From an uncultured Poribacteria bacterium (GTDB lineage Bacteria; Poribacteria; WGA-4E; WGA-3G), in contig OX638316.1 in the NCBI GenBank assembly GCA_951812525.1, forward strand, positions 1,064,506 to 1,128,505: 64,000 nt of DNA, in the 5' to 3' direction. Of the stretch, positions 15,014-33,346 are shown in pieces. The translations under genes and the position numbers were made by a program. Position 1 is the first letter of the stretch; the number at the start of each line of letters is the position of its first letter. The notes below the pieces were generated by a model that made no database searches, had not been told where the DNA came from, and saw only the letters and a list, made by a program, of their open reading frames with translations.

Positions 15014-15020
15014 ACGGTCG

Positions 15021-18387: not shown

Positions 18388-18420
18388 GAGATTCTTCCTT
18401 TAATGGCTATCGGCTGCCAA

Positions 18421-19407: not shown

Positions 19408-20184
19408 TTATTTAAGTTTCAGCGCGAAATCTTGCGTCACTGTGCCACCAGCCTCTACTGTAACGGAGGCGGGGGATGCGCTATTGCTGCCACAGGCTTC
19501 ATGCCAATAACCGAGTTTATAGGTGCCCGCGGGAACATCTTCAAGCGTGAACTCACCCTTTTCGTTCGTCACGGCGAAATACGGATGCGGTACATAGGCA
19601 ATCCAAGCGGACATCCAACCGTGAATGTCGCATTTCACGGACACGGGACCTTCAGCTTTCTTTACACCAGCAAGCGGCATTTTCCGACGGTTCTTTGTCT
19701 GCTGTTTGTTAACCGGCTTGTTGACGCTGCTGAAAATATGGACATTGTGATTAACCTTATCGGTATTGAGCATTGTCAGTCGAGCACCGACTGGAACAAT
19801 CTGGACATGCGGACTGAATTGGCAGCCCTTCTGGTCCATTTCCAGTTTTGTAGCTTTGTCAAAATCTTTGCCTTGCGAAATATCGATAAGATAGACAATT
19901 GTATTTTTTAGAACGTTGCCTTCACCGACGACGACAGATTCATCATATTTCTCGGCAGCACCACAAACCGCTTGGTCCTTGGTGATTTCGAGCATTTTCA
20001 TTTCAGGCACGTCCCCTTCAAACTTCACTACACCGCTAATTGTGCCGCCATTGCTAACGCCTCCAGCAGAATAGGATTCAGGAAACACCAAACTTTCTGT
20101 TTCCGCACTGTCAGCTGCAAAGGCACCACCAACATAGCAACATGCTAAAAGCAGGGCGAGCCCTGCAAACAGATAGATTTTCAT
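19408..20184 (-). CDS. Secreted cupredoxin (type-1 copper protein with amicyanin-like C-x2-H-x2-M spacing) with a C-terminal carboxypeptidase-regulatory-like beta-sandwich. Paralog of 26496..27245.
   Basis: Signal peptide. The ...HNVH... and KCDIHGWM motif gives the Cu ligands His, Cys-x2-His-x2-Met. C-terminal FTLEDVPAGTYKL. About 35% identical by eye to the second copy (MDQKGC, CDIH.WM, DVPAG). Confidence 0.6.
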   Translation of the reverse strand: MKIYLFAGLALLLACCYVGGAFAADSAETESLVFPESYSAGGVSNGGTISGVVKFEGDVPEMKMLEITKDQAVCGAAEKYDESVVVGEGNVLKNTIVYLIDISQGKDFDKATKLEMDQKGCQFSPHVQIVPVGARLTMLNTDKVNHNVHIFSSVNKPVNKQQTKNRRKMPLAGVKKAEGPVSVKCDIHGWMSAWIAYVPHPYFAVTNEKGEFTLEDVPAGTYKLGYWHEACGSNSASPASVTVEAGGTVTQDFALKLK

Positions 20185-20209
20185 TTTTACTCCTTTTTTA
20201 ATAGTATTA

Positions 20210-20308
20210 GTTATCGGTTTTCAGTTATCAGTTTTCTAATGATTATGAGTTGTCAATTTGCAGTTCAAGCAGCCAGTTGCCTCGAAGCACTGAAAACCGA
20301 CAACTATT
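20210..20308. repeat. Inverted-repeat (MITE/REP-like) element, copy B.
   Basis: Arms GTTATCGGTTTTCAGTTATCAGTT and ACTGAAAACCGACAACTATT (reverse complements with one mismatch) flank a ~55-nt core. Confidence 0.6.
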
Positions 20309-20309
20309 C

Positions 20310-22025
20310 TTACGAATTTCTTCGCTGCACGACTGCCCGTAAACCGACGAGCAAGCCGAGAGAAAGAATGGCGATCAAAGGCGGATAAACGAACCGCCTC
20401 GAAGACGGCATCGGTTCAAGGACAAAAGTATACCAACTCGTCATGACCCGTTTTGTGCCAATATCGCCGTTTGAACCGTCCCATGCGGAGAAAGCAATAG
20501 GCACGAAAACACCGGGGTCAAGTTGTAAGTCCTTTTTGTCATTGGTCTTCAAGACACGTTTCACCCATAATTTATATCGTCCGTCCGTATAAGTGCCAGT
20601 TACCTGCAAATCGCCTTGCACTTCTTGGACTTGAACATTATCAACACCCTTAGCAGTAAGCTCTGTCACCTGCTCAGGTGCAGAGGCTTTCCAGTGCCAG
20701 AGATAGACCGGAAGTCTCCCACCATATAAGAAATAGGGCTTCGGAGCAGTCGGACCTTGTGGCACCTTTACAGGAAATTGAATCGCTAAAGCGTCTTCAA
20801 GGGTCTCGCCTGTTTCCTCATCCGTCTCATCAACGGTGTGAGTGCGGTCATCCCATGTAAAGAGGAAAGCGACCTCTGTGTCGTTGTAAAACGATTTGAC
20901 GTTCACGGCATCAATCGTTGGGTTAAACTGTCGCGGCTCAATGACCACCTGCCCGACGAGAGGGAAGTATCTGGCTTCAAATGTTTCCCATGCAGTGTCA
21001 TCAATAGTAGGCAAGGCACCTTGAACGTATTGTGAACGGAGCACGCTATTTCCGATAGCCGGCTCCGGGCGTTCTTCAGGCATAAGAGATTTCACATAGT
21101 TTGCCAGATGCCAGCTCTTTTCATAGACGACCTTCATCGCATCATCATAAGTCTGTTGCTCATCTGTGCTCAACTCCATACCTTCCGTCCGATTGAGGGC
21201 AACATCAACAGCGGCATCCATTTTTTCGTAAAACAGTCCGGATTCCTCTTCCTCCGCCTCCGTCATTTCGTCTTTGTTCTCTAATTCAGTGAGGCGTTTG
21301 GACTCCTCGGATGTCAATCCGAAATGCAGGAAACTATCACCTTCAAATGCAGGCATAGGTGAACCTGCGATGCCACCGATGAATCGCTTGAAGATGTCTT
21401 CGGTGTCAAATCCACCTCGGTAATTCCAACCTTGGGTCAGATTTGCGGGCCATGTTTGGAAACCCCATTCATCAGTTAGCGTAGGGGCAGATGTGCCATC
21501 GCCTCGTCCAATGTTACCGTGGCATTCGATACAACCGAGATCCGTATAAAGACCTTTTCCGATCTCAACACTTTCTTCAGAATAGGAGATTTTGTCTGCT
21601 AAAGTAATTTCCCTCGGCGAAGCCTCACGTTCTTTGAAACCTTCATGGAACGTTTTGATATAGGCGACCAGTTCCCAGCGATCGTCAGCATTTAGGGAAG
21701 TTTCCCATCCGGGCATCGACGAACCGGGCATCCCTTCGGTAATAATGTCGTAGAGGTCCTGATCCGTTGGCAGTTCCCCGGCTTCTGTAGAACGAATCTT
21801 ATACAAACCACGCGTGAAATCTCTGGGTCTTGGAAGTAGGTTCTCAGCAGCCGATCCGTCACCCCTGCCTTCTGTCCCGTGGCAGTGTGCGCAGCTTTCC
21901 TCATAAACCTCTTTTCCTCTCTCGGAAGCCTCTGGAGCATCCTGTGCGTCTGTTACGACAGAGGGAAGTGAGCCTACTACTATTCCGATAATCAGCATCA
22001 AAAAGGCAATGTTTCTGTTTTTCAT
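20310..22025 (-). CDS. Membrane-anchored dihaem cytochrome c fused to a ~300-aa C-terminal domain (possibly an EB_dh/DOMON-like haem-binding domain) and a C-terminal TM helix.
   Basis: Two CxxCH motifs (CAHCHG, CIECHG). The C-terminal half has FLFTWDD...KPYFLYGG...WHWKA...AFSAWDGS. The C-terminal hydrophobic stretch is LIAILSLGLLVGL. Confidence 0.6.
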   Translation of the reverse strand: MKNRNIAFLMLIIGIVVGSLPSVVTDAQDAPEASERGKEVYEESCAHCHGTEGRGDGSAAENLLPRPRDFTRGLYKIRSTEAGELPTDQDLYDIITEGMPGSSMPGWETSLNADDRWELVAYIKTFHEGFKEREASPREITLADKISYSEESVEIGKGLYTDLGCIECHGNIGRGDGTSAPTLTDEWGFQTWPANLTQGWNYRGGFDTEDIFKRFIGGIAGSPMPAFEGDSFLHFGLTSEESKRLTELENKDEMTEAEEEESGLFYEKMDAAVDVALNRTEGMELSTDEQQTYDDAMKVVYEKSWHLANYVKSLMPEERPEPAIGNSVLRSQYVQGALPTIDDTAWETFEARYFPLVGQVVIEPRQFNPTIDAVNVKSFYNDTEVAFLFTWDDRTHTVDETDEETGETLEDALAIQFPVKVPQGPTAPKPYFLYGGRLPVYLWHWKASAPEQVTELTAKGVDNVQVQEVQGDLQVTGTYTDGRYKLWVKRVLKTNDKKDLQLDPGVFVPIAFSAWDGSNGDIGTKRVMTSWYTFVLEPMPSSRRFVYPPLIAILSLGLLVGLRAVVQRRNS

Positions 22026-22027
22026 TT

Positions 22028-22804
22028 TTAGTGTGCCTCCCCGAAGGTCCGCGGCTGATAACCGGTGTAATCAGATAAAAAGAGAATAACGTCCCAAATT
22101 TCGTCTTGCGTCAAGTAGTCTTCCCAGATGGGCATCGCGGAATCCCATGGCGCACCAGCAGCGGGTAACCCGGGTCCACCCTTGCTAATTCGCCAAAAGA
22201 AGAAAGATTCTTGGAAGTTCGGGATAATCCCTGGATCTTGGAAGTTCGCTGGAAGCGGTTGGAGATAGGGCGCGAAATGCCCTTGACCATCAAGATGATC
22301 TCCGTGGCAGTAAAAACAATTCTGATAATAGACCCGTCTTCCGTTCTCCACATGTGCCTTGAATGCCTCTGGATCATCCTTTTCATAATGTCGGAAGGGG
22401 TTCACGACATCTTGCATTGTGCCGATAACCTCATCCTTATAGGTCAATTCAAGTGGTGGCGATGGGTGTGCGTCCCGTGGGCTTCCCGGTGGACTCGCTC
22501 GTTGTGCGATGATCGAGTAGGTATAACCCAATAGAAACAGTGGGATTAACACAGCGATAACGCGACGGCGAATACGACGCCTGTCATCCACGAGCGTTTC
22601 ACGGATGGGCCGCAGGAACTCCTGAAAGAGTGAGTCCTCGACGGAGATATGCACCAAGATGGCGATTATAATCAACCCCATATACATTGCAATCACGCTT
22701 GCTGGTATCGGTACTGACACAACGCCTCCAATGCCGAAGCGCAGCACGAGCCAAGAACCGACTAGGATTATAAGACATATTGTGAAGAGCGACAGCCTTT
22801 TCAT
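22028..22804 (-). CDS. Membrane-anchored monohaem cytochrome c.
   Basis: Two N-terminal TM helices. One CxxCH (CFYCHG) in the C-terminal soluble domain. Confidence 0.7.
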   Translation of the reverse strand: MKRLSLFTICLIILVGSWLVLRFGIGGVVSVPIPASVIAMYMGLIIIAILVHISVEDSLFQEFLRPIRETLVDDRRRIRRRVIAVLIPLFLLGYTYSIIAQRASPPGSPRDAHPSPPLELTYKDEVIGTMQDVVNPFRHYEKDDPEAFKAHVENGRRVYYQNCFYCHGDHLDGQGHFAPYLQPLPANFQDPGIIPNFQESFFFWRISKGGPGLPAAGAPWDSAMPIWEDYLTQDEIWDVILFLSDYTGYQPRTFGEAH

Positions 22805-22880
22805 GGTGTATTTTCCTCCTCTACACAGATGTCGCCCCTACGGGGCTGAAGTAAAGAATTTGTTTTTTCACAGTTGTTTG

Positions 22881-24389
22881 TTATTCGGCGGAAGCGTCAT
22901 CTGTCTCTGCTGGTACTGCTTCCGCTGTCGCACCAGTGAGTGTGCTTAAGAAAGAGAGCAAATTAGCCATATCCGACACGGATAGGAGTAACGGGAAGTT
23001 CTCAGGCATCGGTGAAGTAACCAGTAATTTTTTACCAGAGGCGCGAGTAAAAGTAGCCTCGTTTAAATCAAACGGATCAAATATCTCTTCGCTCCCGTCA
23101 ACGATTAAGACGATTTCGTCGTCGTCCATCGTTCCTGAAACATACTCGCCAACAATTTCCTCGTCATCAAAATCGATAAGGGTCATCTGGCTTTTGACAT
23201 CCGTCTTAGAGAACGTCTTATCTTCACCGTTAACTTTAAGGGTAACCGTCTCGTCGGTTTCTGAAACGATTTCCCCAGTAACCGGTGCGTCCGCATCTGT
23301 GGGCGTTAGCGTCAAAGTAAAGTAACCTTTCGCTTGCAGATCGGTGAGTTCCTCAATCGGTTCCTCGTCAAGTTCACTCAGCAAGATCGTGTGCTCCTCT
23401 TCGACACCATCCGCAGTTTTGGTTCGGACGACAATCTGTTCTGTATCTTGTGAGACAAGCGTTCCTTGGTAAGTTGTTCCGTTGGCACTAACGGTAACAG
23501 CACCGTAACCACTTACAATTTGCGCACTCGGCATCAAGACCGATTCCTCAAGATACCGCAGGTCGTTAAAGGCAGCAATTTCAGAGAGGTCTGGCGCAGT
23601 GACGACTTCAAAGTCTGTAGTAGTTGCACCCGCTGCTGGACTTTCTATTCCCTGTACTGCGTGACAAGAGATACACGCAGCACTCACAAAAACTTTCTTA
23701 CCCTGTTCTGCGTCGCCAGTGAGTAAGGGTGGAAGGGCTGCAGCGGCTACTGCGCTGTCTGCTCTATCTATAGGCTCATCATACGGTGTCGGATCAATCT
23801 CGCCGCCTTGGCTCTGGAGGTAAGCGATAACAGCCTCAATCTCTAATTTAGAGAGAGCGATAGGTGCCTTCCAAATCTCCGGCATAATTTTGCCGTATCC
23901 GGGAACAAGATATTTATCGGGTTCATAAAGCGATTCAATAAGATACGTCTTTCCATCCATACCGGGTACGCGGCTCGCTGCATTAATGCCGATGTCTGTT
24001 AGATCCGGACATCTCCCTTTCGGTGCGGAGGTATCAACGGTATGACACGCGCTACACTGCCCCTTGCCATTAAACACCAATGCCCCTTGCTCAGCGACTG
24101 CATCCGGGTCGCTCCAATCGAGGGAGGTTAAATTCACCGCTGTGGAACTTTCGGGAACAAGGCTTGCGACAAAGGCGTAAAACCATATCACGGCAAGTGA
24201 GAACGTCAACAATTTCATGACGTTGGACCACAAGACGATGTTTATGATCACCGAGATGAGAAACCAAACCGACCAAGGCAGTAGGTTCTCTGAAGCAATC
24301 GGAAATGCAGATGCTCCAGCAATATAGGCGATGAAACTCACCACCATTAAGATTAGACTCGCAATTTTTATGAGCGTATTTTTCGACAT
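22881..24389 (-). CDS. Membrane-bound dihaem cytochrome c, with four N-terminal TM helices and a long periplasmic region.
   Basis: Likely start MSKNTLIK (ATG at 24387-24389). CxxCH x2 (CSACHT, CISCHA). Confidence 0.65.
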   Translation of the reverse strand: MSKNTLIKIASLILMVVSFIAYIAGASAFPIASENLLPWSVWFLISVIINIVLWSNVMKLLTFSLAVIWFYAFVASLVPESSTAVNLTSLDWSDPDAVAEQGALVFNGKGQCSACHTVDTSAPKGRCPDLTDIGINAASRVPGMDGKTYLIESLYEPDKYLVPGYGKIMPEIWKAPIALSKLEIEAVIAYLQSQGGEIDPTPYDEPIDRADSAVAAAALPPLLTGDAEQGKKVFVSAACISCHAVQGIESPAAGATTTDFEVVTAPDLSEIAAFNDLRYLEESVLMPSAQIVSGYGAVTVSANGTTYQGTLVSQDTEQIVVRTKTADGVEEEHTILLSELDEEPIEELTDLQAKGYFTLTLTPTDADAPVTGEIVSETDETVTLKVNGEDKTFSKTDVKSQMTLIDFDDEEIVGEYVSGTMDDDEIVLIVDGSEEIFDPFDLNEATFTRASGKKLLVTSPMPENFPLLLSVSDMANLLSFLSTLTGATAEAVPAETDDASAE

Positions 24390-24476
24390 TTTCGCCTCTT
24401 TCAAAAATTGTAGTGCTCTAAGTTCATTATGCAGAATCAGTCCAGCGTGCATACCTTTGGTATGCGTGCGTCGATA

Positions 24477-26378
24477 TTAGTCATCACCCTCAGCAGTAAC
24501 GGCGGTTTCGGCGGTAGCTGCTGCGTCCTGCTTTTTCTTTTCACCCCACAAACCGAGCCAGAAGATGAATCCAACGAGCGCAAAGAAAACCACCATGATA
24601 ATCGCCACAATGTTCACTGCTTCGCTGAGGAGCGGTGTAAACGCGTCAGCGGATGTGTCCTGCATGACCCCGAAGATATGCCACGCCTCTCTAAGCCCTG
24701 AACGCGCATAACCCATCAACCCCATAAGGGACGTAAACGTAATCGCAATGAGAATTAAGACGTATTGTGACCGATCCGTCATTTCTCCCCAATTAATAGT
24801 GCCAGAGGTCGTCGCTCTGCGGTACATGAATATGTCAACGACAGTAACGACTGCCATAACCGCGAGGGCAACCAGGACCTGATAAGGCGTAAGGATATTG
24901 ACCCGCAAATCTGTTGGGACAGTAAATCCGACGATACCGATAACCACAATTGAAACAACCGCGAGGAAAAAGATCGAGGAGATAGCGATGTTACCGACTT
25001 TTCCCCAGCTCGCCGTTGGTGTTTTCCCTGAACGCCGATAAAATAGGAAACTCAAGAAAGTGGTGAGAATAACGATGTTAACAGCCGTATTCTTGGCGGT
25101 CATTAAGCCAAACAACCCAAGATGTGGGTGGTTTGCACCGCCCATCGCGCTCAGTTCACTGGCACTTGAGATCTTAGAGAGTGTCCGTGGGGTCATCCAA
25201 ATTGCAACACAGATAACGATAACGGTAATCATGTAGGGACGATAACGCGCATAGATCTCGGCACCTTCAATTCGTCCCATGCCTGACCAGAGGTAGTAGT
25301 TCGCACCAATAAAAAGCACGCCGATCATGACTGCCTGAATGATAAATAGCCAAGAAAATAGACTACCCATCATGTTAATGCCCATGGTGTTGTTGAACAT
25401 GTAGATTTCCCGACCAAGCCAATAGCCGAGGAAAGGCAGCGGTATCAGTCCACAGAGTGCGATGAAGTTGCCGGTATAGCCCATCCAATCGTAATGTGCT
25501 TTGTCCTCTTTGGTCTTGGCGACGAGGAATCGGAAGGCAGCGTACGCTGCTACAATTGAACCTCCGAAGGCGATGTTTCCAACAAGGCGGTGGATATTAA
25601 CTGGCATCCACGTAAAATTGTTGACGGCATCCCAAACGGTACCCATGAACTCACCTGTTGTCTCGTTGTGGAGCGGCACCATTGTATGGCTTGTAACGCC
25701 TTCCATAGCGGTGTCAGGTGTTAGCGATGGATCAGCGGCTAATTTCTCCTCTATCCAAGACTTCCGCCTTCCTTCAGATAGTACGCCGTATTGGGTTGCA
25801 GGGCTTGTTTGGTAACTGAGCCATGCGTTAGAGACAAACATAATCGCAGTACCGAACACATTCAGAAGCACGCCGAGGAAGAGATGCCATCCCTTATGGC
25901 GTCCCTGCATTTTATCCCACCCGTAAGAGTAGAGGTAGAGCGTAAAGGTTTCCCCAAAGAACAGAACGACGTAAAAAATCATCGTCGGTCCGAATATCCC
26001 ACTGAGTTTTGTCATTACTTTGGGATAGCACCAGATGAGAATGAAGACGAGAACACCACCAAGTAAGGCTGTTGTGGAAAACGCGCCCATACAGAGTTTA
26101 ATAAACTCCTGCGCCATCCGATCATATCGCATGTCCTTTGTCTTCCAGCCGATAAATTCAATGATAACAGCGAACATCGGGACACCGAGAATAAAGGATC
26201 CGAATAAGAGGTGAAGCTGCGCAGCGATCCACGCTGCATTCCGGCTGCCGATCTTCGGGAAGGGACGATATTCTGCCTCGGTCGCGTCTTGGGCAAACAC
26301 CGGGGCAATCGCTAAGAAGGCATAAGCGACCAGTACGCAAGCAAATATGAGATAGAGTCTCTTTTTAGATATTTTCAT
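24477..26378 (-). CDS. Cytochrome bd-like protein: a CydA (cytochrome bd quinol oxidase subunit I) family homolog of 633 aa with an N-terminal signal/anchor. No cydB is adjacent.
   Basis: By-eye alignment to E. coli CydA helices. [22 protein letters not shown] aligns with [51 protein letters not shown] aligns with [59 protein letters not shown] aligns with [29 protein letters not shown]. Confidence 0.65.
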   Translation of the reverse strand: [633 protein letters not shown]

Positions 26379-26385
26379 CTTTTAT

Positions 26386-26479
26386 GGTTGTCGGTTGTCA
26401 GTTGTCAGTAAAAGTGCGATTTGTGGAATTCACGTAGTACACAACTGCCACAAGCCTTAACCGATAACCGACAACTATT
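26386..26479. repeat. Inverted-repeat (MITE/REP-like) element, copy C.
   Basis: Arms GGTTGTCGGTTGTCAGTTGTCAGT and AACCGATAACCGACAACTATT. Confidence 0.6.
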
Positions 26480-26495
26480 AAAATCGTTTAAAAAA

Positions 26496-27245
26496 CTATT
26501 TAGCGCGTTTCTTGAAATCAGCACTCGTAAAGTTTACAGCAACATCACCACTCGCTGACACTTCAACAGTTTTGTTGGCTGAACCGAGTTCTTCATGCCA
26601 TGCAACAACCCGGACTTTACCGGCTGGAACATCAGCAATCGAATAGCTGCCAGCATCTGCGGATTTCTCGTATGCATCCGAACTAATCCATGCGCCATCA
26701 GCATCTTTGTAACCTGTGACGGTGAAGAAGTTGCTGTTGACAGCGACAATGTAGCCGGTCATCCAAGCGTGAATATCACATGTGAACTTAATCTCCTCAG
26801 CTTTGGCGATTTTGTGAGGGATGATTTTGCCGGGCTGCGGAATTTGATAGTTTATAGCGTCATTCTTTTTGGCGTGCGAATGGACATTGTGGGCGATCGG
26901 GTCGCTGGAGGTAATATCAACGGTAGAACCGGCAACAACCGCTAGGACGTGCGGGTAGTAAGCGCATCCCTTTTGGTCCATAACTGGATTCTTATCTGGG
27001 ACGGTAACTTTAGCACCACGGACGCGAGCGTAAAGGACAACGTTCTTGATGCCTTTGCCTTTTGAGACAACGAGTGCTTCGGATTTTGTGCCGGCTACAG
27101 CGTCAATACAATGTTGGTCTTTGGTAGCCGTTAAGGCGGGACGCGCCGGTGCATCACCATCATACATTACGGTACCGGTGATGGTGCCTGCGAAGGCAGT
27201 ACTTGCGAGCATTGCGCAAAGAAGCAATGTGACTAAAATCTTCAT
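26496..27245 (-). CDS. Secreted cupredoxin, paralog 2 (C-x2-H-x2-M type-1 Cu site) with a carboxypeptidase-regulatory-like C-terminus.
   Basis: Likely start MKILVTLLLC (ATG at 27243-27245). HNVH...CDIHAWM. C-terminal DVPAGKVRVVAWHE. Confidence 0.6.
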   Translation of the reverse strand: MKILVTLLLCAMLASTAFAGTITGTVMYDGDAPARPALTATKDQHCIDAVAGTKSEALVVSKGKGIKNVVLYARVRGAKVTVPDKNPVMDQKGCAYYPHVLAVVAGSTVDITSSDPIAHNVHSHAKKNDAINYQIPQPGKIIPHKIAKAEEIKFTCDIHAWMTGYIVAVNSNFFTVTGYKDADGAWISSDAYEKSADAGSYSIADVPAGKVRVVAWHEELGSANKTVEVSASGDVAVNFTSADFKKRAK

Positions 27246-27391
27246 AATTTGACTTCTCCTTATATATTTAAATTTATCCTGCAATATATTAACACCACAG
27301 AATTTCAGAATGCAAATAAATAGACCTAAACTTTTTTATTGTTATGTATCTAACTTGCGAGCGTTTCGGGAGATACATATTTGCAAGTTAA

Positions 27392-27820
27392 TTAAGGACG
27401 AAACGTCTCTTTAATATAGTCGAGAATCTCCCGTTGTTCCTCATCGCTGAGGTAATAATAGAACGCTGGCATATCGTCCTTCCCTGTGTCGATGCTATCC
27501 AACAGTTGTTCATCGTCATGCATTTCCCACAAACTATTATCCGTTAGGTCTGCTGGATCCAACTTCTTGAAACGACCAATACGTCCGTTGCCTTGTCCGT
27601 TATTCCCATGGCAGCCAGCGCAGTACCGAGCGTACTTGTATTCAACGTCCGACTGATACTTCGTGCTCGGATCAACCTGCTTGCCCAACCATATTAGTCC
27701 GTTGAGCCAAACAATAATCATAACGATAACAACGGCAAGGTGTCTCATAGTCCTATACCTTAGCCCAACGGTGTGGTTGTAGGTGTTAGGGTTTCGAGAC
27801 GCGTCCGCTGCTTGCGGCAC
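27392..27820 (-). CDS. Membrane-anchored monohaem cytochrome c.
   Basis: N-terminal TM helix, then CAGCHG. Confidence 0.75.
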   Translation of the reverse strand: MPQAADASRNPNTYNHTVGLRYRTMRHLAVVIVMIIVWLNGLIWLGKQVDPSTKYQSDVEYKYARYCAGCHGNNGQGNGRIGRFKKLDPADLTDNSLWEMHDDEQLLDSIDTGKDDMPAFYYYLSDEEQREILDYIKETFRP

Positions 27821-27853
27821 GCCTGTTATATGGAAGCACGCCCAAGCCTCAGA

Positions 27854-30800
27854 CTAACGTCCCAAGGATATGAGGTAATCACGCACCAGTCGAATCTGTT
27901 TCTCAGCGTCATCGTCAGCATAGCCATCAAGGGGCATGTGCTGTCCACCAACGAGTGGCCATGCCTGAGGCATTGCTGTTCCCGGTTGGAAGGATTGTGG
28001 ATCTTTCATCCAATCAATAAGCCAATCCGCTTTGAGTCGTTCCTTTGCCAAAGCAAGATCTGGTCTTCCCGCTTTGTCGCTCCCTTCAGGAATAACTTCG
28101 CCCTGCGATGGGTGACAAGAGATACACTGTAGCACGTCAAAAATTTGTTTACCGACCTGTAATTCAGAGCGCGTCGGGGTCGGCGTTTCAAGCGTCTCGT
28201 ATGGGAACGGTTCATCATCAAGCGCGGAGAAATATTTGACAAGCGTTGTTGCTTCGTCATCCGACAGTTCAAATGTCGGCATCCGCACCTTGAGTCCATA
28301 GCGAATATCTGACGGTTCTTTGAGGAACGCAAATAACCAGTCTGGATAGACTCTTGCACCTTCCGCTTTCAAGGGTGGTGGTGCAAACTGCTTGGCGTTC
28401 GTCTCATTTAACCCTTCATGTGCGACGATGACATCAATATAATCGCCACCTGCACCTTCAATTTCATGGCAGCCCGTACAGTTATATTTTTTCACCAGTC
28501 GCCTGCCAGCATCAATCCGGTTTAACTTTTCGGATCGGTTATGGATATAACTAAGCGGGTACTGCTCGGGTTGGAAACCCTTCAAAAGGACAGCAAGTGC
28601 TCTCGCGTCTTCGTCGTTGATATTGAAGACAGGCATACGAGAGACAATACGGCGGGTTTGGTAACGCCGCGGATTGGTCACTTTACCAAGCGTCCACCCG
28701 GTCCAACTGTGTTCGATGCCTACCGTGTCCCCGAAGTCAAGCTCATCAGGCATTTTCGCGCCGAATTCTCCGAGATCTGCTCCGACTTTCGACTCACTTT
28801 CAAACCCGGGAATTGTGTGGCAGCCGAAACATCCGTAGGTCCTGACGAGTGCCTCACCCTCGGCTGGATCAACTTCGCCGATAGATTCGCCGGATGCATT
28901 GGGTGTTGCTTGCTGCAAACTCATCAAGTAGGCAACGGTGTTGTCAATTTCGCTATCAGTAAGCCTTAAACTCGGCATACTTGTATCTGGATCGTAGGCT
29001 TTCGGGTCGCGAATCCACTGACGGAGGTAGGTTGGTGTAACCTTTGTGCCGACGCTGTCAAGTGCGGGGGCAAAATCGCTTCCCAAGTCACCAACAGCAT
29101 GACATGTGAGACAGCCAACAGCTTTAACGGTCTCTTCACCGGCTGCAATAGCGCGTTGAGATTCAGAATAGGTTGCACTGGATTCATCAAGATCCGCATC
29201 ACTCATCTGTGCGAGGTAAGCCGCTATAGATTTCACCTCATCAACGATCCGAAGCACATAACTATCGGGATAGGGATACTCTGTACCCTCATCTGTTTTA
29301 ATGATGATACCATTCGCGGTTTTGGTGACAACACCCGTACGTTGTCCACCATTCTTGAGGTAGACAACTTGCGTCATACCATCGGCAGGGAAGAAGTTAG
29401 GCATCGTCGCGTTCGGCAGATACGCGTCGGGTTTCTTAATCCAACTTTCAAGCCAAGTGGTATCTTTTATCTTGCTACCGACTTTCGCGAGCGATGGACC
29501 GACTTTCGCGATGTCTTCAATGGCACTATAACCCTCTACAGCGTGGCAGCCGTGGCAGCCCAAATCTTCAAAGAGTGCCAAACCCTTTGTGAGATGAGGG
29601 GCATAGTCTTGGGGTTCATCTGTTTCAGGATTTACGCCGTAATCTAACATCATCACACCATCGTGGCAGCGGCGGCAATTAGATTCCATATATCCCGCTG
29701 TCTCTTCGGAGGTTCTACCGGTATGCTCATCCATCCCGAGTACAGGGGTAAGCCAATATTCGGCATGGGTCAAAGCGTGTGCGGATTTCGCTGTAAGTGC
29801 CTGTCCTTGTCCACCGTGGCAGAGCGTACATCCGAATTTATCAACAGGGTGTTTTGCGAGGAGAACATCGCGATGCGGGTGTGTCTGGAGTACCGAACGA
29901 TAGCCGGTCTCATAAGAGATCTCTACTTCGCCGAAAACATCTACGTCAGTGAAAGTGAGGGTGCCGTTTTCTTCTAATGTATATTCATCAGGTTCAGCAT
30001 CAAATCCATCAATTATGATCGACTCACTACCTACTTTAACACTTGAGTGTTTGAGACGATGAACAACAGGATTTTCGCCGTCACCTTCTACTTCAAACAT
30101 CTCTTGCGCCGATTGTTCGTAGCCGCTGCTATCGGCAGAAAAGTGACACGTAGCGCATCTGTCTGCAGTATGACTAAAGTCTTCAAGATAGTATTGAACG
30201 ATGGTTCGCGTTTCACGGAACGGATTTTCCAAGAGACTTCCAAGAAAGGTTCTTTTAATACCGCCGACCGAATGCAACTTTTCCTCAAGGCGTGTGACCT
30301 CGTCATATTTTGATTTGTCGGCTTGCAGCGATTGAAGGGCATCTTGCGCAGTGGCAATACCTTCAGCTATTTCTGTATCGGTAGCGTTATATTTCAGTGC
30401 AATGAGGTAGGTACTGAGTGCACGCTGCGGGTCGTCACTATTTTGATAGAACTGTGCCAACGCCTTGTTTTCGTTTGCGAAGGTTGCTTCTGCTGCTAAA
30501 ACGGCTTCGGTCAGTTCACCTTCAATCCGAGATTCATAATCAGCTAACTTTTTCTGCCACTTGTCAACAGTCTCATTGTGTCTACCCTTCGCTTCGTGGA
30601 GGCTATGCTGATATTTATAGTTAACCGCATCTGATTCGCTCTGCCGGAATTTGCGTGCTTGCAGTGCTTCCTCAAGTGCAACCTGTGCGTTCTCCACATT
30701 CTTCGTCAATCTTCGTAATTCTTTCGAATCAGGCTCTTGAGGTGTGGGGAGTTCGGGCAAATTCGACATTGCATTTGCTAATTCTAATTGTGTCTTCTCA

Positions 30801-30982
30801 TACTCGTATTGATAAAACTGCTGTTGAATCTGCTTCCACGGACGGCGGGTGATCATCTCACTCCAGAATCCCCAAATAGTTACCAGTCCTAACAGTGCGG
30901 ACAAAATAAAGAACAAAGCAGAATATGATTTATTCTCAGCAGGAATTTCTTTATTGCTCCTCACGAAATTTTCTACCTCCAT
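27854..30982 (-). CDS. 1042-aa membrane-anchored octahaem c-type cytochrome with an N-terminal coiled-coil-like region.
   Basis: Eight CxxCH motifs: CATCH, CTLCH, CRRCH, CHGCH, CLTCH, CFGCH, CTGCH, CISCH. TM anchor YSALFFILSALLGLVTIWGFW. Located in the Rieske/cyt b operon. Confidence 0.8.
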   Translation of the reverse strand: MEVENFVRSNKEIPAENKSYSALFFILSALLGLVTIWGFWSEMITRRPWKQIQQQFYQYEYEKTQLELANAMSNLPELPTPQEPDSKELRRLTKNVENAQVALEEALQARKFRQSESDAVNYKYQHSLHEAKGRHNETVDKWQKKLADYESRIEGELTEAVLAAEATFANENKALAQFYQNSDDPQRALSTYLIALKYNATDTEIAEGIATAQDALQSLQADKSKYDEVTRLEEKLHSVGGIKRTFLGSLLENPFRETRTIVQYYLEDFSHTADRCATCHFSADSSGYEQSAQEMFEVEGDGENPVVHRLKHSSVKVGSESIIIDGFDAEPDEYTLEENGTLTFTDVDVFGEVEISYETGYRSVLQTHPHRDVLLAKHPVDKFGCTLCHGGQGQALTAKSAHALTHAEYWLTPVLGMDEHTGRTSEETAGYMESNCRRCHDGVMMLDYGVNPETDEPQDYAPHLTKGLALFEDLGCHGCHAVEGYSAIEDIAKVGPSLAKVGSKIKDTTWLESWIKKPDAYLPNATMPNFFPADGMTQVVYLKNGGQRTGVVTKTANGIIIKTDEGTEYPYPDSYVLRIVDEVKSIAAYLAQMSDADLDESSATYSESQRAIAAGEETVKAVGCLTCHAVGDLGSDFAPALDSVGTKVTPTYLRQWIRDPKAYDPDTSMPSLRLTDSEIDNTVAYLMSLQQATPNASGESIGEVDPAEGEALVRTYGCFGCHTIPGFESESKVGADLGEFGAKMPDELDFGDTVGIEHSWTGWTLGKVTNPRRYQTRRIVSRMPVFNINDEDARALAVLLKGFQPEQYPLSYIHNRSEKLNRIDAGRRLVKKYNCTGCHEIEGAGGDYIDVIVAHEGLNETNAKQFAPPPLKAEGARVYPDWLFAFLKEPSDIRYGLKVRMPTFELSDDEATTLVKYFSALDDEPFPYETLETPTPTRSELQVGKQIFDVLQCISCHPSQGEVIPEGSDKAGRPDLALAKERLKADWLIDWMKDPQSFQPGTAMPQAWPLVGGQHMPLDGYADDDAEKQIRLVRDYLISLGR

Positions 30983-31046
30983 GTCAATTAATGCATCAGG
31001 ATGTCCTTAGTTAAGGTCTGCAGATGTTAGTACAAATCCTTCTCCC

Positions 31047-31913
31047 CTATATGTTGAACCACGGGGATACCCAGATATATTTCACATTGAAGAATATGCG
31101 CAAGATCATTTTTATTGGCAGTGCGAGCATGGTTAAGAACAGAAATGAGACGATGACGTATCGAACGAGACCGAGTTCCTGCAAGAAACGGCTACTATTC
31201 CGCTTCCATAAGTAGAAAATCGGGCCGACCGAGAAATAACCTGCCACGACGATGAATCCAAAGAAGTTTGCGGTATTTTCACCTCGGATGCCGAAAAGAT
31301 AGGACAGATTCACGTTCGTTAGCGGCACGACAAGGTGTGGGTCCCACGCTTCCCACGGCGCGAAGAAGTTCCATCCAGGTCCCCTGAGGAATGTACCGAC
31401 GACCATCAGGACGATCCATAAAATGATGAATCCGAAAGAGAACACTCCGAGTGCGAACGGACGTTCCTTAATTGTATAATAACCCTTGCCCTTGGGATTA
31501 ATGTCAATGTAGGGAATAGCAATCAACCCGGCAATAATCAACCCTGGTAACACCACGCCTGCGATCCAAGGGTCGAAGTAGACGAGCATTTCCTGTAGTG
31601 CGAGGAAATACCAAGGTGCTTTAGAAGGGTTCGGCGTTTTTGTTGGATCGCTCGGTTCTTCAAGCGGCGCGTCAATCATAATCGACCAAACACCTAAGAC
31701 CAACATAGTAATAATTGCGCAGATAAACTCATTTCGGCACAGATAGGGCCAGACGTAGACTTTATCATTAAGGGCTGCATCTGAGGGAACACCTGTCTTG
31801 TCAGTCTGGCGTGCCTGCCGGTACGAAAGCCAGATGAAATAAGGTATCAAAAAGAGAATAGCAACAATGGGGACATTATCCGGCTTCGTCACCAGTGCTA
31901 AAAAATGCTCCAT
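31047..31913 (-). CDS. Cytochrome b C-terminal-domain protein (PetD/subunit-IV-like half of a split cytochrome b), extended.
   Basis: PNPSKAPWYFLALQEML carries the PEWY-type motif of the cyt b C-terminal domain. Multiple TM helices. Confidence 0.7.
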   Translation of the reverse strand: MEHFLALVTKPDNVPIVAILFLIPYFIWLSYRQARQTDKTGVPSDAALNDKVYVWPYLCRNEFICAIITMLVLGVWSIMIDAPLEEPSDPTKTPNPSKAPWYFLALQEMLVYFDPWIAGVVLPGLIIAGLIAIPYIDINPKGKGYYTIKERPFALGVFSFGFIILWIVLMVVGTFLRGPGWNFFAPWEAWDPHLVVPLTNVNLSYLFGIRGENTANFFGFIVVAGYFSVGPIFYLWKRNSSRFLQELGLVRYVIVSFLFLTMLALPIKMILRIFFNVKYIWVSPWFNI

Positions 31914-32001
31914 ATTCTGCTCCTTTGAAGATTGGATTCCTTGCCCGTGCTAACAGAAACTGCGTTCCGCCGCCACAAAAGACGTATTTTTAGAACTCCT
32001 T

Positions 32002-32772
32002 TTATAGTGGTCCGGAGATGCCGCCATCTTTACGCACACGCCAGAAATGCAAAGCCATCAGGACGCTCGCCAAAAGTGGCACAGCGACGCAGTGTAAAAT
32101 ATAGAACCTTAACAGCGTTGAGGGTCCTACGATTGTACCCGCGAGCAGCGCAAATCGGACATCGTTTGATTGTGTAATGTCTTGTGGTGCAAACGGACCT
32201 TCGTGTCCCAAAACCGGTGTTGCGCGTGCCATATTCGTACCGACAGTGACCGCCCAAAATGCCAACTGATCCCACGGCAAGAGATAGCCGGTGAAACTGA
32301 GGAAAAACGTCACGAGTAACAAGATGACCCCGACTGCCCAGTTGAATTCTCGTGGTTTCTTATACGAACCGGTCAAGAAGACTCTGAACATGTGTAGCAT
32401 GACCGAAATAACCATTCCGTGTGCTGCCCAGCGATGCATGTTGCGGAGTAGCATTCCGAAAGGTATATCAAATTCGAGGTACTGTACATCGTGGAAGGCA
32501 TATTCAGCCGTAGGACGATAGTAGAACATGAGGAGTACGCCCGTGACGGCAGTCACAAGAAACATGAGAAAGGTGATGCCGCCCATACACCATGTAAAGC
32601 GGAAGTTCAACGCATGGCGAGAAACGCGAGGAGGATGGAGATGCAACCAGACGTTTTGGAGGATTTGTAGGGTGTAACGGCGCCCCGTGTCTTCATATCC
32701 GTGGCGGAATATAGAGCGCCAAATATCAGAATTGGTAATCTTTTCTTTCAGCCCTTTACGTTCTTCGTTCAT
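32002..32772 (-). CDS. Cytochrome b6-like N-terminal half of split cytochrome b, carrying the haem b His ligands.
   Basis: RNMHRWAAHGMVISVMLHMFRVFLTGSY and TFFLSFTGYLLPWDQLAFWAVTV are typical of cyt b/b6. Confidence 0.85.
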   Translation of the reverse strand: MNEERKGLKEKITNSDIWRSIFRHGYEDTGRRYTLQILQNVWLHLHPPRVSRHALNFRFTWCMGGITFLMFLVTAVTGVLLMFYYRPTAEYAFHDVQYLEFDIPFGMLLRNMHRWAAHGMVISVMLHMFRVFLTGSYKKPREFNWAVGVILLLVTFFLSFTGYLLPWDQLAFWAVTVGTNMARATPVLGHEGPFAPQDITQSNDVRFALLAGTIVGPSTLLRFYILHCVAVPLLASVLMALHFWRVRKDGGISGPL

Positions 32773-32857
32773 ACTGTCTATCGCAGGCTTCGACGTATAG
32801 ATGCGCCGAAACGCCTTTTCTACCTAACCGAAGCTAGGCGCGAATGCTCTCCTTTCT

Positions 32858-33346
32858 TCAGACCTTCAAAAAGGAGCCTGGGTCGGTCCACTGCCCCTTC
32901 TCACCTAAAAACTTCACAGACTTATCAATCTCGATCTGACCATCTTCTGCCAATGTAATTTTAACACGCTCAAGGGGACGTGGGGCGGGACCTTCGTAGT
33001 TAATGCCCTCTCGGTCGAAACCGCTACCGTGACATGGACACTTGAATTTGTTTTCAGACCCGAGCCATCGCGGTGTACACCCGAGGTGTGTACAAATCGT
33101 TAAGAGTGCATAGAATTCACCGTCCTGTTTCCGAACAATCCAGACACCGAACGGCTCTTTTTTATACTTTTCGCTAACACTACCGGGCGGATATTCTGCC
33201 GGGAGTCCTGCTTTAAAGATAGAGGAAGGTTCAAACAATACGCGTGGATACAGGTACCGGACCAACCCCGGTCCGAAAGTCAGACCTAATGCTGCAACGA
33301 AATTCCCCCAACCGAGAAATTTAAAAAATTTACGACGAGATACCAC
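32858..33346 (-). CDS. Rieske [2Fe-2S] iron-sulfur protein with a Tat signal.
   Basis: Twin-arginine SRRKFFKF. Rieske boxes CTHLGC and CPCHGS. Confidence 0.9.
   Translation of the reverse strand: MVSRRKFFKFLGWGNFVAALGLTFGPGLVRYLYPRVLFEPSSIFKAGLPAEYPPGSVSEKYKKEPFGVWIVRKQDGEFYALLTICTHLGCTPRWLGSENKFKCPCHGSGFDREGINYEGPAPRPLERVKITLAEDGQIEIDKSVKFLGEKGQWTDPGSFLKV

What the first reader, a model, noticed from the sequence alone, without database searches (positions are those of the whole stretch)
19408..33346. 24-kb single-strand respiratory supercluster: Rieske/split cyt b, octahaem c, cupredoxins, cyt bd-like module, then aa3 oxidase
Gene order on the minus strand is: Rieske, cyt b6-like, cyt b C-domain, octahaem c, monohaem c, cupredoxin-2, CydA-like, membrane dihaem c, monohaem c, dihaem c-EB_dh-like, cupredoxin-1, ABC exporter, ctaC-ctaD-ctaA-ctaB-(small TM)-coxIII-(small TM)-coxIII-coxIV-SCO1. 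The CydA-like gene (24477..26378) has an N-terminal signal/anchor and no cydB partner, and it is embedded among c-type cytochromes. This resembles the poorly characterised cyt bd-like putative terminal oxidases I recall from Nitrospira and anammox genomes (unverified). Its function, electron donor and partner subunits are unknown.
Basis: partly seen in the sequence, partly recalled or inferred. Interest (0 to 1): 0.7.

Follow-up and report, generated by a model that had tools for sequence, protein, structure and literature searches.

The report
Poribacterial respiratory cluster with bd-like oxidase
A sponge- or coral-associated Poribacteria genome carries one long gene train for a whole oxygen-respiration chain. 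It includes a well-conserved member of the already described but never biochemically tested "cytochrome bd-like" (OR-N2) oxidase family, so it is a new member of a known kind.

Summary

The window is from Candidatus Poribacteria, a phylum already listed as OR-N-positive.

Comparison of 80 loci from at least 7 phyla defines the likely partner subunits:
- two membrane-anchored c cytochromes;
- a dihaem-c/EbdC-like subunit, fused to one of those cytochromes in some lineages;
- a type-1 copper cupredoxin.

In several phyla this module runs straight into aa3 oxidase genes. It is often accompanied by a cytoplasmic Usp/PCP_red/Mrp gene trio, which is also present here at 4659-9881.

The most likely function is a cytochrome c/cupredoxin-fed O2 reductase working in parallel with aa3. 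This is inferred, not shown.

Verdict: new member of a known but uncharacterised kind; moderate interest.

The parts
33563..33591 (-). Promoter-like site upstream of the Rieske gene (TTGACA-17-TATAAT, 12 of 12, with TG extension)
   Evidence: This is a consensus match only. No terminator-like site falls in any intergenic gap of the cluster.
32858..33346 (-). Rieske 2Fe-2S subunit with a twin-arginine signal (SRRKFF) and the CTHLGC...CPCHGS motifs
   Evidence: PF00355 E=7e-12. Best NCBIfam match is b6f PetC. Motifs.
32002..32772 (-). Cytochrome b6-type subunit (split cytochrome b, N-terminal part). Cys62 aligns with Cys35 of b6, the haem ci attachment site.
   Evidence: PF00033 E=4.5e-45. Spinach b6 6rqf E=9e-51, with the alignment ending at the b6 C-terminus.
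31047..31913 (-). Subunit IV-like / cytochrome b C-terminal part, extended (288 aa, about 6 TM)
   Evidence: PF00032 E=8.5e-7. NCBIfam ExtQ 3e-16 and cytb6_f_IV 1.6e-7.
27854..30982 (-). Membrane-anchored octahaem cytochrome c (1042 aa; 8 CxxCH; four multihaem-type motifs plus class I domains). Probably takes the place of cytochrome c1/f.
   Evidence: It is linked to Rieske/cyt b only in Poribacteria loci.
27392..27820 (-). Membrane-anchored monohaem cytochrome c (142 aa)
   Evidence: PF13442 E=5e-12; 1 CxxCH; 1 TM.
26496..27284 (-). Cupredoxin-2: signal peptide, N-terminal beta domain, type-1 Cu domain (HNVH...CDIHAWM), C-terminal CarboxypepD_reg-like domain. The true start is probably the internal ATG (MKILV...) 13 codons downstream.
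24477..26378 (-). CydA-like OR-N2 'bd-like oxidase' subunit (633 aa; signal peptide plus about 13 helices). Key residues: His56 (=His19 of E. coli CydA), Tyr136 (=Glu99), Glu143 (=Glu107), His165 (=His126), His263 (=His186). Family-specific invariant residues: Glu324, Glu408, His417, Lys429, Trp566-His567.
22881..24452 (-). Membrane (3 TM) dihaem cytochrome c with a C-terminal extension; inferred subunit of the bd-like complex
   Evidence: 2 CxxCH. PF00034. It immediately follows the CydA-like gene in 39 of 66 non-Poribacteria loci.
22028..22804 (-). Membrane (3-4 TM) monohaem cytochrome c; the most constant partner of the CydA-like gene
   Evidence: Present in 55 of 66 non-Poribacteria loci. 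Fused to the EbdC-like subunit in L028, L030, L032, L034 and L041. Only a 2-bp gap to the next gene here.
20310..22025 (-). Periplasmic dihaem c plus EbdC/NxrC-like (EB_dh) subunit with a C-terminal TM anchor ('alternative NxrC' type)
   Evidence: The N-terminal domain matches Kuenenia 6h5l_B at E=1.5e-77. The EB_dh part matches NxrC 7b04_C at 6e-23 and EbdC 2ivf_C at 4e-17. The Met108 (EbdC) position is Tyr434 here and variable in the family; the Lys201 position is Lys525.
19408..20184 (-). Cupredoxin-1 (type-1 Cu ligands His146, Cys185, His188, Met191). Likely carries electrons between the cytochromes c and CuA of aa3.
   Evidence: A downstream cupredoxin occurs in 21 of 21 loci with COX1 downstream and in 6 of 25 without.
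17602..19341 (-). ABC ATPase (18421-19341) plus ABC-2 permease (17602-18387). This pair is inserted between the cupredoxin and COX2 only in Poribacteria.
10185..17557 (-). A-type haem-copper (aa3) oxidase genes and assembly genes: COX2 with an intact CuA motif (16865-17557), COX1 (15021-16877), CtaA (14031-14966), CtaB (13089-14012), small TM protein (12799-13062), COX3 (12173-12766), small TM protein (11881-12150), COX3 (11192-11842), COX4_pro (10844-11179), SCO1 (10185-10832).
4659..10179 (-). Co-oriented companion genes: 2-TM ORF (9919-10179); Usp x2 + PCP_red x3 + rubredoxin-like protein (7974-9881); PQQ_2/BamB-like beta-propeller (6080-7366); Mrp/ApbC-type Fe-S carrier NTPase (5202-6083); small PCP_red protein (4659-5189).
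   Evidence: Homologs of the Usp/PCP_red, Mrp and small PCP_red genes lie within 10 kb of the CydA-like gene in about 24-32 of 66 non-Poribacteria loci.

Best explanation
The window comes from a Candidatus Poribacteria genome. Positions 4659-33346 on the minus strand form one co-oriented respiratory gene train.

Proposed electron path:
1. Quinol is oxidised by a b6f-type Rieske / split cytochrome b complex. Its c1/f role is taken by a membrane-anchored octahaem cytochrome c.
2. Electrons pass to high-potential periplasmic carriers: membrane-anchored monohaem c and two type-1 copper cupredoxins.
3. From there they reach two terminal enzymes.

The first terminal enzyme is a canonical CuA-containing aa3 haem-copper oxidase.

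The second is an OR-N2 'bd-like' complex. It is built from the 14-helix CydA-like subunit, two membrane-anchored c cytochromes (523 and 258 aa) and a TM-anchored dihaem-c/EbdC-like subunit. The CydA-like subunit has no Q-loop, so it takes electrons from the periplasmic c haems rather than from quinol. The electrons enter through the His263-ligated haem (b558 position). The complex then reduces O2 at the His56-ligated haem next to invariant Tyr136. Protons arrive from the cytoplasm along Glu143 and His165.

Shown here: family membership, fold, residue conservation, purifying selection, conserved neighbours and a subunit fusion.
Inferred, not shown: haem occupancy, cytochrome c as donor, O2 as acceptor, and physical association of the subunits.
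For: Organism: the closest homologs (74-95% identity) are all named Ca. Poribacteria.

Superfamily and fold:
- PF01654 above its cut-off.
- AF2 model with pLDDT 81.9 and pTM 0.82.

OR-N2 signature and ligands: sequence and profile alignments to solved CydA chains, compared with Supplementary Table 6 of Murali et al.. These residues are invariant in 66 homologs from at least 7 phyla.

Selection: dN/dS is 0.026-0.035 against the closest orthologs.

Partner subunits:
- The order CydA-like, c523, c258, EbdC-like, cupredoxin recurs with gaps of 0-30 bp or 4-bp overlaps in Latescibacterota, Methylomirabilota/Rokubacteria, Gemmatimonadota, Chloroflexi, Myxococcota and Nitrospinae.
- c258 and the EbdC-like subunit are one ORF in five loci.

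Proton-path residues that lead from the cytoplasm to the His19 haem in true bd oxidases (E107, H126) are invariant. An O2 or other oxidant reductase needs these; a pure electron relay does not (inference).

Literature: the same module is highly transcribed in Nitrospira. OR-N enzymes are regarded as putative cytochrome c-oxidising O2 reductases (PMC6606698, PMC10839748, PMC12342949).

In 19 of 46 loci with enough downstream sequence the module stands without adjacent aa3 or cupredoxin genes. This fits an autonomous enzyme.
Against: - No OR-N enzyme has been purified. The papers read state that subunit composition and function are unconfirmed.
- Glu99 is replaced by Tyr. The Glu445 ligand of the third haem is not recognisably kept (Ser/Ala in Murali's table). 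A three-haem bd-type active site is therefore not assured.
- Strictly anaerobic anammox bacteria carry the module, so O2 cannot be the acceptor everywhere.
- The EB_dh domain lacks a conserved Met at the EbdC Met108 position (Tyr434 here; Gly in Gemmatimonadota). Its haem b is therefore doubtful.
- Tight operonic linkage to aa3 through a cupredoxin in several phyla would also fit a donor-side role.
The spatial relation of His417 and His567 to the haem pockets is untested.
Confidence: 0.5

Rival explanations
1. Donor-side module. The bd-like complex is not an oxidase. It is a membrane electron-transfer complex of the alternative-complex-III kind. It exchanges electrons between the quinone pool (at a new quinol site) and periplasmic c haems and cupredoxin. 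It thereby feeds the adjacent aa3 oxidase, possibly as a supercomplex.
For: - In Methylomirabilota/Rokubacteria, Gemmatimonadota and Chloroflexi the module is followed directly, on the same strand and with gaps of 0-114 bp, by cupredoxin-COX2-COX1-CtaA/B-COX3.
- 21 of 46 loci with at least 8 kb downstream have COX1 downstream, and all 21 have the cupredoxin between.
- This mirrors ACIII-plus-oxidase gene clusters and the Chloroflexus ACIII to auracyanin to oxidase chain (my own knowledge).
- The COX2 genes here are aa3-type without a cytochrome c domain, so they need an external donor.
- Lucker et al. 2013 and Mundinger et al. 2019 considered a quinone-interacting role for the Nitrospina and Nitrospira modules.
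- Invariant periplasmic-side Glu324, Glu408 and Lys429 could form a new quinol site. This is speculation.
Against: - The Q-loop and the known quinol-binding residues are absent (PMC3578206). The profile alignment to solved CydA covers only TM1-6 by sequence.
- Poribacteria already encode a Rieske/cyt b6-type quinol oxidase in the same train, which would make a second quinol:cytochrome c module redundant.
- The cytoplasm-facing proton-path residues Glu143 and His165 are invariant. A periplasmic quinol oxidation site has no obvious use for them.
- Many loci (Acidobacteriota) have the module without adjacent aa3 genes.
Confidence: 0.22
2. Docking and anchor complex for a periplasmic type II DMSO-reductase-family enzyme such as nitrite oxidoreductase. 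The EbdC/NxrC-like subunit would receive electrons from the soluble catalytic dimer. The bd-like protein would pass them into the membrane, including reverse electron flow to quinone.
For: - The subunit is homologous to Kuenenia NxrC (7b04_C, E=6e-23) and EbdC (E=4e-17).
- In Nitrospira, Nitrospina and Kuenenia the module lies in or near NXR clusters and has been proposed as an NXR anchor.
Against: - No NxrA/B or other molybdopterin subunit was found among the scanned ORFs of the 64-kb window.
- None of the window-derived queries picked one up in the 80 loci; note that this is not a direct test for molybdoenzymes.
- The module is widespread in phyla not known as nitrite oxidisers, and there it is tied to aa3 genes.
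- The Met ligand of the EbdC/NxrC haem b is not conserved.
Confidence: 0.07
3. Degenerate or non-functional cydA paralog left over next to working respiratory genes.
For: Only the N-terminal half matches the Pfam CydA model (profile positions 3-238 of 418). No cydB is nearby. Poribacteria are also listed as having canonical qOR2-type cydA.
Against: - dN/dS is about 0.03.
- Identity is 74-95% within Poribacteria and 49-54% across phyla, with more than 150 invariant columns in 66 sequences.
- The operon partners are conserved.
Confidence: 0.01

Closest known systems
OR-N2 subfamily of the cytochrome bd superfamily (Murali, Gennis & Hemp 2021); NIDE0901-like and bd-like_3-like 'cytochrome bd-like oxidases' of Nitrospira, Nitrospina and Kuenenia; TO_1 of Ca. 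Manganitrophus
   Same: - About 14 helices, no Q-loop.
- His19, His186, Glu107 and His126 equivalents kept, with Tyr at the Glu99 position.
- Operon with two membrane c cytochromes and an EbdC/NxrC-like subunit carrying two haem c motifs and a TM helix, plus two cupredoxin-like proteins.
- 38% identity to Nitrospira / Manganitrophaceae proteins.
   Different: - No NXR genes nearby.
- Here the module sits between a b6f-type Rieske/cyt b-octahaem complex and an aa3 haem-copper oxidase. Nitrospira lacks haem-copper oxidases.
- There is a 41-residue periplasmic insertion between TM4 and TM5 relative to the Nitrospira reference spacing.
- Placement inside the OR-N2 clade by phylogeny was not done.
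Canonical cytochrome bd quinol oxidase CydAB (E. coli bd-I 6rko; Geobacillus 5doq/5ir6)
   Different: - No CydB or CydX partner in the window.
- No Q-loop or quinol residues.
- Five extra helices and an N-terminal signal peptide.
- Glu99 is replaced by Tyr, and the Glu445 and Met393 equivalents are not recognisable.
- The neighbouring genes encode c-type cytochromes.
Alternative complex III plus caa3/aa3 oxidase gene clusters (Rhodothermus, Flavobacterium, Chloroflexus with auracyanin)
   Different: There is no homology of the catalytic parts beyond general fold similarity: no ActB Fe-S/molybdopterin-like subunit and no pentahaem ActA. Quinol oxidation by the bd-like protein is unproven.
Cytochrome b6f-type Rieske/cyt b complexes with multihaem c subunits (Planctomycetes/anammox, Nitrospira, Firmicutes-type bc)
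   Same: Split cytochrome b; the haem ci cysteine; a Tat-exported Rieske protein; a multihaem cytochrome c instead of c1/f.
   Different: The octahaem protein is 1042 aa and combines multihaem-type and class I domains. In the sampled loci its linkage to the bd-like module is seen only in Poribacteria.

Membership tests
Cytochrome bd superfamily (CydA) | Significant match to the CydA family model | tested here: met
   PF01654 E=3.4e-17, 62.6 bits against a gathering cut-off of 26.2. Only profile positions 3-238 of 418 match.
Cytochrome bd superfamily (CydA) | CydA fold (two four-helix bundles plus an extra helix) | tested here: met
   [not shown]
Cytochrome bd superfamily (CydA) | His19 ligand of the active-site haem in TM1. 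Murali et al. describe it as conserved in all cydA paralogs, and name the di-haem site in TM1-4 as the defining characteristic of the superfamily. | tested here: met
   His56 aligns with His21 of Geobacillus (His19 of E. coli). Present in 63 of 66 homologs.
Quinol-oxidising bd oxidases (qOR1-4a) | Q-loop with Lys252 and Glu257; cydB or cydA' partner gene | tested here: not met
   No sequence alignment to solved CydA beyond TM6. No PF02322 gene among the scanned ORFs. The literature states that the quinol residues are lacking in this type.
OR-N2 subfamily | About 14 TM helices | tested here: met
   Signal helix 5-29 plus about 13 long helices in the AF2 model. The hydropathy profile agrees.
OR-N2 subfamily | Signature residues: Tyr at E99, Glu at E107, Tyr/Tyr at F114/F116, His at H126, His at H186 | tested here: met
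   Tyr136, Glu143, Tyr150, Tyr152, His165 and His263, all invariant in 66 homologs. OR-N1 has Gly at the E107 position, so OR-N1 is excluded.
OR-N2 subfamily | Operon with several cytochromes c and an EbdC homolog | tested here: met
OR-N2 subfamily | Phylogenetic placement within the OR-N2 clade | not tested
   The reference sequences (TKS59798.1, NIDE0901) were not retrievable. The only evidence is 38% identity to Nitrospira / Manganitrophaceae-named proteins.
OR-C subfamily | CxxCH haem c motifs within the CydA-like polypeptide | tested here: not met
   No CxxCH in the 633-aa protein.
Haem-copper-like CuB site proposed for Nitrospira bd-like_2 (per Mundinger et al. 2019, citing Lucker et al. 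2010) | Cluster of conserved His residues placed to bind Cu next to the active-site haem | not testable with these tools
   There are five invariant His residues. His417 and His567 are family-specific and lie in predicted periplasmic loops.
Type-1 copper cupredoxins (amicyanin-like) | His...Cys-x2-His-x2-Met ligand set and cupredoxin domain | tested here: met
   His146, Cys185, His188 and Met191 are invariant in 26 sequences. The profile hits 5fc9 at 9e-7 and amicyanin at 1.2e-6. Single-sequence Pfam and NCBIfam searches were below threshold.
EbdC/NxrC haem b subunits of type II DMSO reductases | EB_dh domain | tested here: met
   PF09459 E=1.9e-17. TIGR03477 6e-25, below its cut-off. 7b04_C 6e-23 and 2ivf_C 4e-17.
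EbdC/NxrC haem b subunits of type II DMSO reductases | Met and Lys axial ligands of haem b (Met108 and Lys201 of EbdC, from my own knowledge of the EbdC structure) | tested here: inconclusive
   The Met position is Tyr434 here and varies across 19 homologs (M, Y, W, F, G, H, L). The Lys position is Lys525 here and is K or R in the family.
Cytochrome b6f-type Rieske/cyt b complex | Split cytochrome b, haem ci cysteine, Rieske cluster motifs | tested here: met
A-type haem-copper oxidase (aa3) | COX1, COX2 with a CuA motif, COX3 and COX4, plus haem A synthesis genes | tested here: met
   PF00115 503 bits. CuA motif H-x34-C-x-E-x-C-x3-H-x2-M at residues 162-208 of COX2. CtaA, CtaB and SCO1 are present. 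Proton-channel residues were not examined.

The most novel reading that the evidence does not exclude
The OR-N2 module, the cupredoxin and the aa3 oxidase form one obligate functional unit, a supercomplex. In it the bd-like complex is a previously unrecognised type of quinol- or cytochrome c-oxidising entry module for a haem-copper oxidase. It would be matured by a dedicated cytoplasmic Usp/PCP_red/Mrp system. Because PCP_red is the C-terminal domain of the protochlorophyllide reductase subunit BchB, and Mrp is a NifH-related Fe-S NTPase, that system might deliver or modify a tetrapyrrole cofactor, for example a chlorin-type haem.
Probability: 0.12. Interest if true: 0.85.

Novelty: new member of a known kind. 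Interest (0 to 1): 0.45.

Why it matters
OR-N 'bd-like oxidases' are thought to be the main terminal oxidases of Nitrospira, Nitrospina and Mn-oxidising Nitrospirota. No member has been characterised biochemically.

This locus and the cross-phylum comparison show three things:
- The same module is common in presumably heterotrophic aerobes (Poribacteria, Gemmatimonadota, Acidobacteriota, Rokubacteria, Latescibacterota) that have no nitrite oxidoreductase nearby.
- The comparison defines a minimal conserved subunit set.
- The module is tied to aa3 oxidase genes and to a cytoplasmic accessory trio.

That widens the choice of organisms in which the family's function could be tested. It also argues that the 'alternative NxrC' subunit belongs to the bd-like complex itself rather than being specific to NXR.

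For Poribacteria, the cluster describes a compact, possibly dual-oxidase respiratory chain. Such a chain could suit the fluctuating oxygen inside sponge or coral hosts; this last point is speculation.

Tried and rejected
- A genome-contig scan with the most diverse alignment (A1, down to 27% identity) failed because no stretch was conserved enough. I repeated it with A2.
- The protein search with the window protein returned only Poribacteria in its top 120. A profile search was needed to get diverse sequences that the structure tool would accept.
- Single-sequence Pfam, NCBIfam and PDB searches did not identify the cupredoxins. A family profile did.
- I looked for NxrA/B, cydB or other oxidoreductases in the rest of the window and found none. 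The flanks carry sulfatase, DUF1501/PSCyt2/PSD1, WD40 and FGE-sulfatase genes.
- The Lucker et al. 2010 PNAS paper, which defines the proposed CuB residues, is not held. The CuB question therefore stays open.
- AF2 coordinates are not exposed, so distances between His417 or His567 and the haem pockets could not be measured.
- Terminator scans found nothing in the intergenic gaps and fewer sites than in shuffled sequence. They neither support nor split the single-operon view.
- I considered the OR-C and OR-N1 subfamilies and rejected both: no CxxCH in the protein, and Glu rather than Gly at the E107 position.
- The degenerate-paralog idea is rejected by dN/dS of 0.03.

Full report
**1. The observation**

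ORF listing and Pfam/NCBIfam scans confirm the gene order on the minus strand exactly as described. In order:
- Rieske (32858-33346)
- cytochrome b6-like (32002-32772)
- cytochrome b C-domain / subunit IV-like (31047-31913)
- a 1042-aa cytochrome with eight CxxCH (27854-30982)
- a monohaem c (27392-27820)
- a 262-aa protein (26496-27284)
- the CydA-like gene (24477-26378)
- a 3-TM dihaem c (22881-24452)
- a 3-4-TM monohaem c (22028-22804)
- a dihaem c + EB_dh protein with a C-terminal anchor (20310-22025)
- a 258-aa protein (19408-20184)
- an ABC ATPase and ABC-2 permease
- COX2, COX1, CtaA, CtaB, small TM protein, COX3, small TM protein, COX3, COX4, SCO1 (10185-17557)

Intergenic gaps range from -13 to 125 bp.

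A perfect sigma-70 consensus lies upstream of the Rieske gene (33563-33591). No terminator-like site falls between genes.

They are paralogs. In an alignment of 26 family members from several phyla, His146, Cys185, His188 and Met191 are invariant, forming an amicyanin-type C-x2-H-x2-M loop. The family profile matches blue copper proteins (5fc9 9e-7; amicyanin 1.2e-6).

**2. Source organism**

The closest CydA-like homologs (74-95% identity) and the best genomic loci are all Candidatus Poribacteria MAGs. The flanking genes (sulfatases, FGE-sulfatase, DUF1501/PSCyt2/PSD1, WD40 proteins) fit that phylum. All 14 Poribacteria loci retrieved show the same gene order as far as their contigs reach.

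**3. What the CydA-like gene is**

Alignment to solved CydA chains gives these equivalences:
- His56 = His19 (E. coli numbering)
- Tyr136 = Glu99
- Glu143 = Glu107
- His165 = His126
- His263 = His186

This matches the OR-N2 subfamily defined by Murali, Gennis and Hemp. That subfamily has 14 helices and no quinol site. Its signature is Tyr/Glu/Tyr/Tyr/His/His at the E99, E107, F114, F116, H126 and H186 positions. Its operons carry several cytochromes c and an EbdC homolog. OR-N1 (Gly at E107) and OR-C (CxxCH in CydA) are excluded.

Representatives at 38% identity are named Nitrospira sp. / Ca. Manganitrophaceae.

The whole gene set has been described before. A bd-like protein, two membrane c cytochromes, an 'alternative NxrC' with two haem c motifs and one TM helix, and two cupredoxin-like proteins were reported in the NXR regions of Kuenenia, Nitrospira and Nitrospina and in TO_1 of Ca. 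Manganitrophus. Poribacteria are already scored OR-N-positive in Murali's Supplementary Table 3. The papers read from 2024 and 2025 state that composition and function remain experimentally unconfirmed.

**4. It is not a decayed paralog**

dN/dS against the nearest orthologs is 0.026-0.035. Sixty-six homologs from Poribacteria, Acidobacteriota, Gemmatimonadota, Methylomirabilota/Rokubacteria, Myxococcota and others share more than 150 invariant columns. These include all the residues above plus the family-specific Glu324, Glu408, His417, Lys429, Arg559, Arg563 and Trp566-His567. By the positive-inside rule applied to the model helices, His417 and His567 lie in periplasmic loops. That is the side where bd-type haems sit. 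They are candidates for replacing Met393 or Glu445 as ligands, or for binding Cu. This could not be tested here.

**5. Comparative genomics**

A scan of one genome per species found at least 589 relatives; 80 loci were examined. BLAST of the window's proteins against all ORFs of these loci gave five results.

(a) The core order CydA-like, c523-like, c258-like, EbdC-like, cupredoxin is conserved with tiny gaps or 4-bp overlaps in Latescibacterota, Methylomirabilota/Rokubacteria/NC10, Gemmatimonadota, Chloroflexi, Myxococcota and Nitrospinae. The 258-aa cytochrome is the most constant neighbour (55 of 66 non-Poribacteria loci).

(b) In five NC10/Rokubacteria-type loci the 258-aa cytochrome and the EbdC-like protein are one ORF of 727-839 aa. 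This fusion supports their being subunits of one complex.

(c) In 21 of 46 loci with enough downstream sequence, the module runs straight into cupredoxin-COX2-COX1-(CtaA/B)-COX3-COX4 on the same strand. A cupredoxin is present in 21 of 21 of these loci but in only 6 of 25 of the others.

(d) The Rieske/cyt b/octahaem genes are linked to the module only in Poribacteria.

(e) Three cytoplasmic genes at the far end of the window's train recur within 10 kb of the CydA-like gene in about 24-32 of 66 non-Poribacteria loci. They are Usp x2 + PCP_red x3 + rubredoxin-like (7974-9881), an Mrp/ApbC-type NTPase (5202-6083) and a small PCP_red protein (4659-5189). Where present they are often directly upstream of the CydA-like gene (L030, L038, L044).

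**6. The other components**

The cytochrome b is b6-type. Its best PDB hit is spinach b6 (9e-51), the alignment ends at the b6 C-terminus, and Cys62 sits on the haem ci cysteine. The Rieske protein has a Tat motif and both cluster motifs. COX2 has an intact CuA motif and no cytochrome c domain.

The N-terminal dihaem domain of the EbdC-like subunit is very similar to chain B of the Kuenenia HAO-like complex 6H5L (1.5e-77). Its EB_dh part matches Kuenenia NxrC and EbdC. The residue aligned with the EbdC haem b ligand Met108 is Tyr434 here and varies across the family. The Lys201 position is Lys or Arg. Haem b binding by this domain is therefore uncertain.

**7. Mechanism**

The best-supported reading is a complete quinol-to-oxygen chain with two terminal branches. 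The b6f-like complex with its octahaem subunit reduces membrane-anchored c cytochromes and cupredoxins. These feed the aa3 oxidase (via CuA) and the OR-N2 complex.

In the OR-N2 complex, electrons from periplasmic c haems would enter at the His263 haem. They would then reach the His56 haem next to Tyr136. Substrate protons would come from the cytoplasm past Glu143 and His165, giving charge separation as in true bd oxidases.

Support comes from the retention of exactly the active-site and proton-path half of CydA, together with the loss of the quinol half. Further support comes from the periplasmic c-haem partners and from loci where the module stands alone.

The main rival is a donor-side, ACIII-like role feeding aa3. 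Its support is the tight operonic coupling to cupredoxin and aa3 in four or more phyla. Against it stand the missing quinol site, the conserved cytoplasmic proton path, and the presence of a Rieske/cyt b complex in the same Poribacteria train. An NXR-anchor role is unlikely here, because no molybdoenzyme gene lies nearby. My probabilities are 0.5, 0.22, 0.07 and 0.01 (degenerate paralog), with the remainder unassigned.

**8. Novelty and verdict**

The gene family, its unusual architecture and its partner set are already in the literature, and Poribacteria are already tabulated as carriers. I did not find the following in the papers I could read:
- the Poribacteria arrangement (b6f-type complex + octahaem + OR-N2 module + ABC pair + aa3 in one train);
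- the cross-phylum operonic link of OR-N2 modules to aa3 oxidases through a cupredoxin;
- the c258-EbdC fusion;
- the non-conserved haem b ligand;
- the recurring Usp/PCP_red/Mrp trio.

These are comparative observations that sharpen hypotheses. They do not make this a new kind of system. I rate it a new member of a known kind, with interest 0.45.

Noticed in passing
window 4659-9881 (minus strand); also L012 1678-6846, L030 4730-9925, L038 4512-9993, L044 4180-9897, L021 14781-19204: Three cytoplasmic genes recur next to the OR-N2 CydA-like gene in many phyla: Usp x2 + PCP_red x3 + rubredoxin-like protein, an Mrp/ApbC-type Fe-S carrier NTPase, and a small PCP_red protein. PCP_red is the C-terminal domain of protochlorophyllide reductase subunit BchB. 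Their function is unknown. They might be a maturation or regulatory system for the bd-like complex.
   Followed up: partly
L028 12577-14847, L030 12566-14749, L032 6747-9266, L034 12583-14853, L041 8623-10902: In NC10, Methylomirabilota and Rokubacteria loci, the homologs of the 258-aa membrane cytochrome c and the dihaem-c/EbdC-like subunit are fused into one ORF of 727-839 aa.
   Followed up: yes
window 20310-22025 (residues Tyr434 and Lys525 of the protein): The EB_dh domain does not conserve the Met that ligates haem b in EbdC and NxrC. The position is Tyr here and Gly in Gemmatimonadota homologs. The so-called periplasmic cytochrome b may therefore bind haem differently or not at all.
   Followed up: partly
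window 17602-19341: An ABC ATPase plus ABC-2 permease pair sits between the cupredoxin and COX2 only in Poribacteria loci. By loose analogy with NosFY it might serve copper-centre maturation. This was not tested.
   Followed up: no
window 33563-33591 (minus strand): A 12-of-12 sigma-70 consensus with an extended -10 TG lies about 220 bp upstream of the Rieske start. A second site (11 of 12) is at 33414-33442.
   Followed up: no
L025 3403-15510 (Myxococcota MAG): Two complete copies of the module (CydA-like, c523, c258, EbdC-like, cupredoxin) are arranged divergently, back to back. The two CydA-like copies are 46% and 51% identical to the window protein.
   Followed up: no
alignment A3, column of His56: Three of 66 close homologs show Lys instead of the His19-equivalent ligand. 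This could be an alignment shift or a real ligand swap.
   Followed up: no
[not shown]
   Followed up: no
window 41776-42696, 46366-47865, 44725-46173, 61772-62707, 37469-41548: WD40 repeat proteins, a sulfatase, an FGE-sulfatase and a DUF1501 + PSCyt2/PSD1 pair. These are typical Poribacteria/PVC-like flank content and support the taxonomic assignment.
   Followed up: no
window 56906-60310 (minus strand): A 1134-aa ORF with no family match apart from a faint C-terminal AbiEi-like hit.
   Followed up: no
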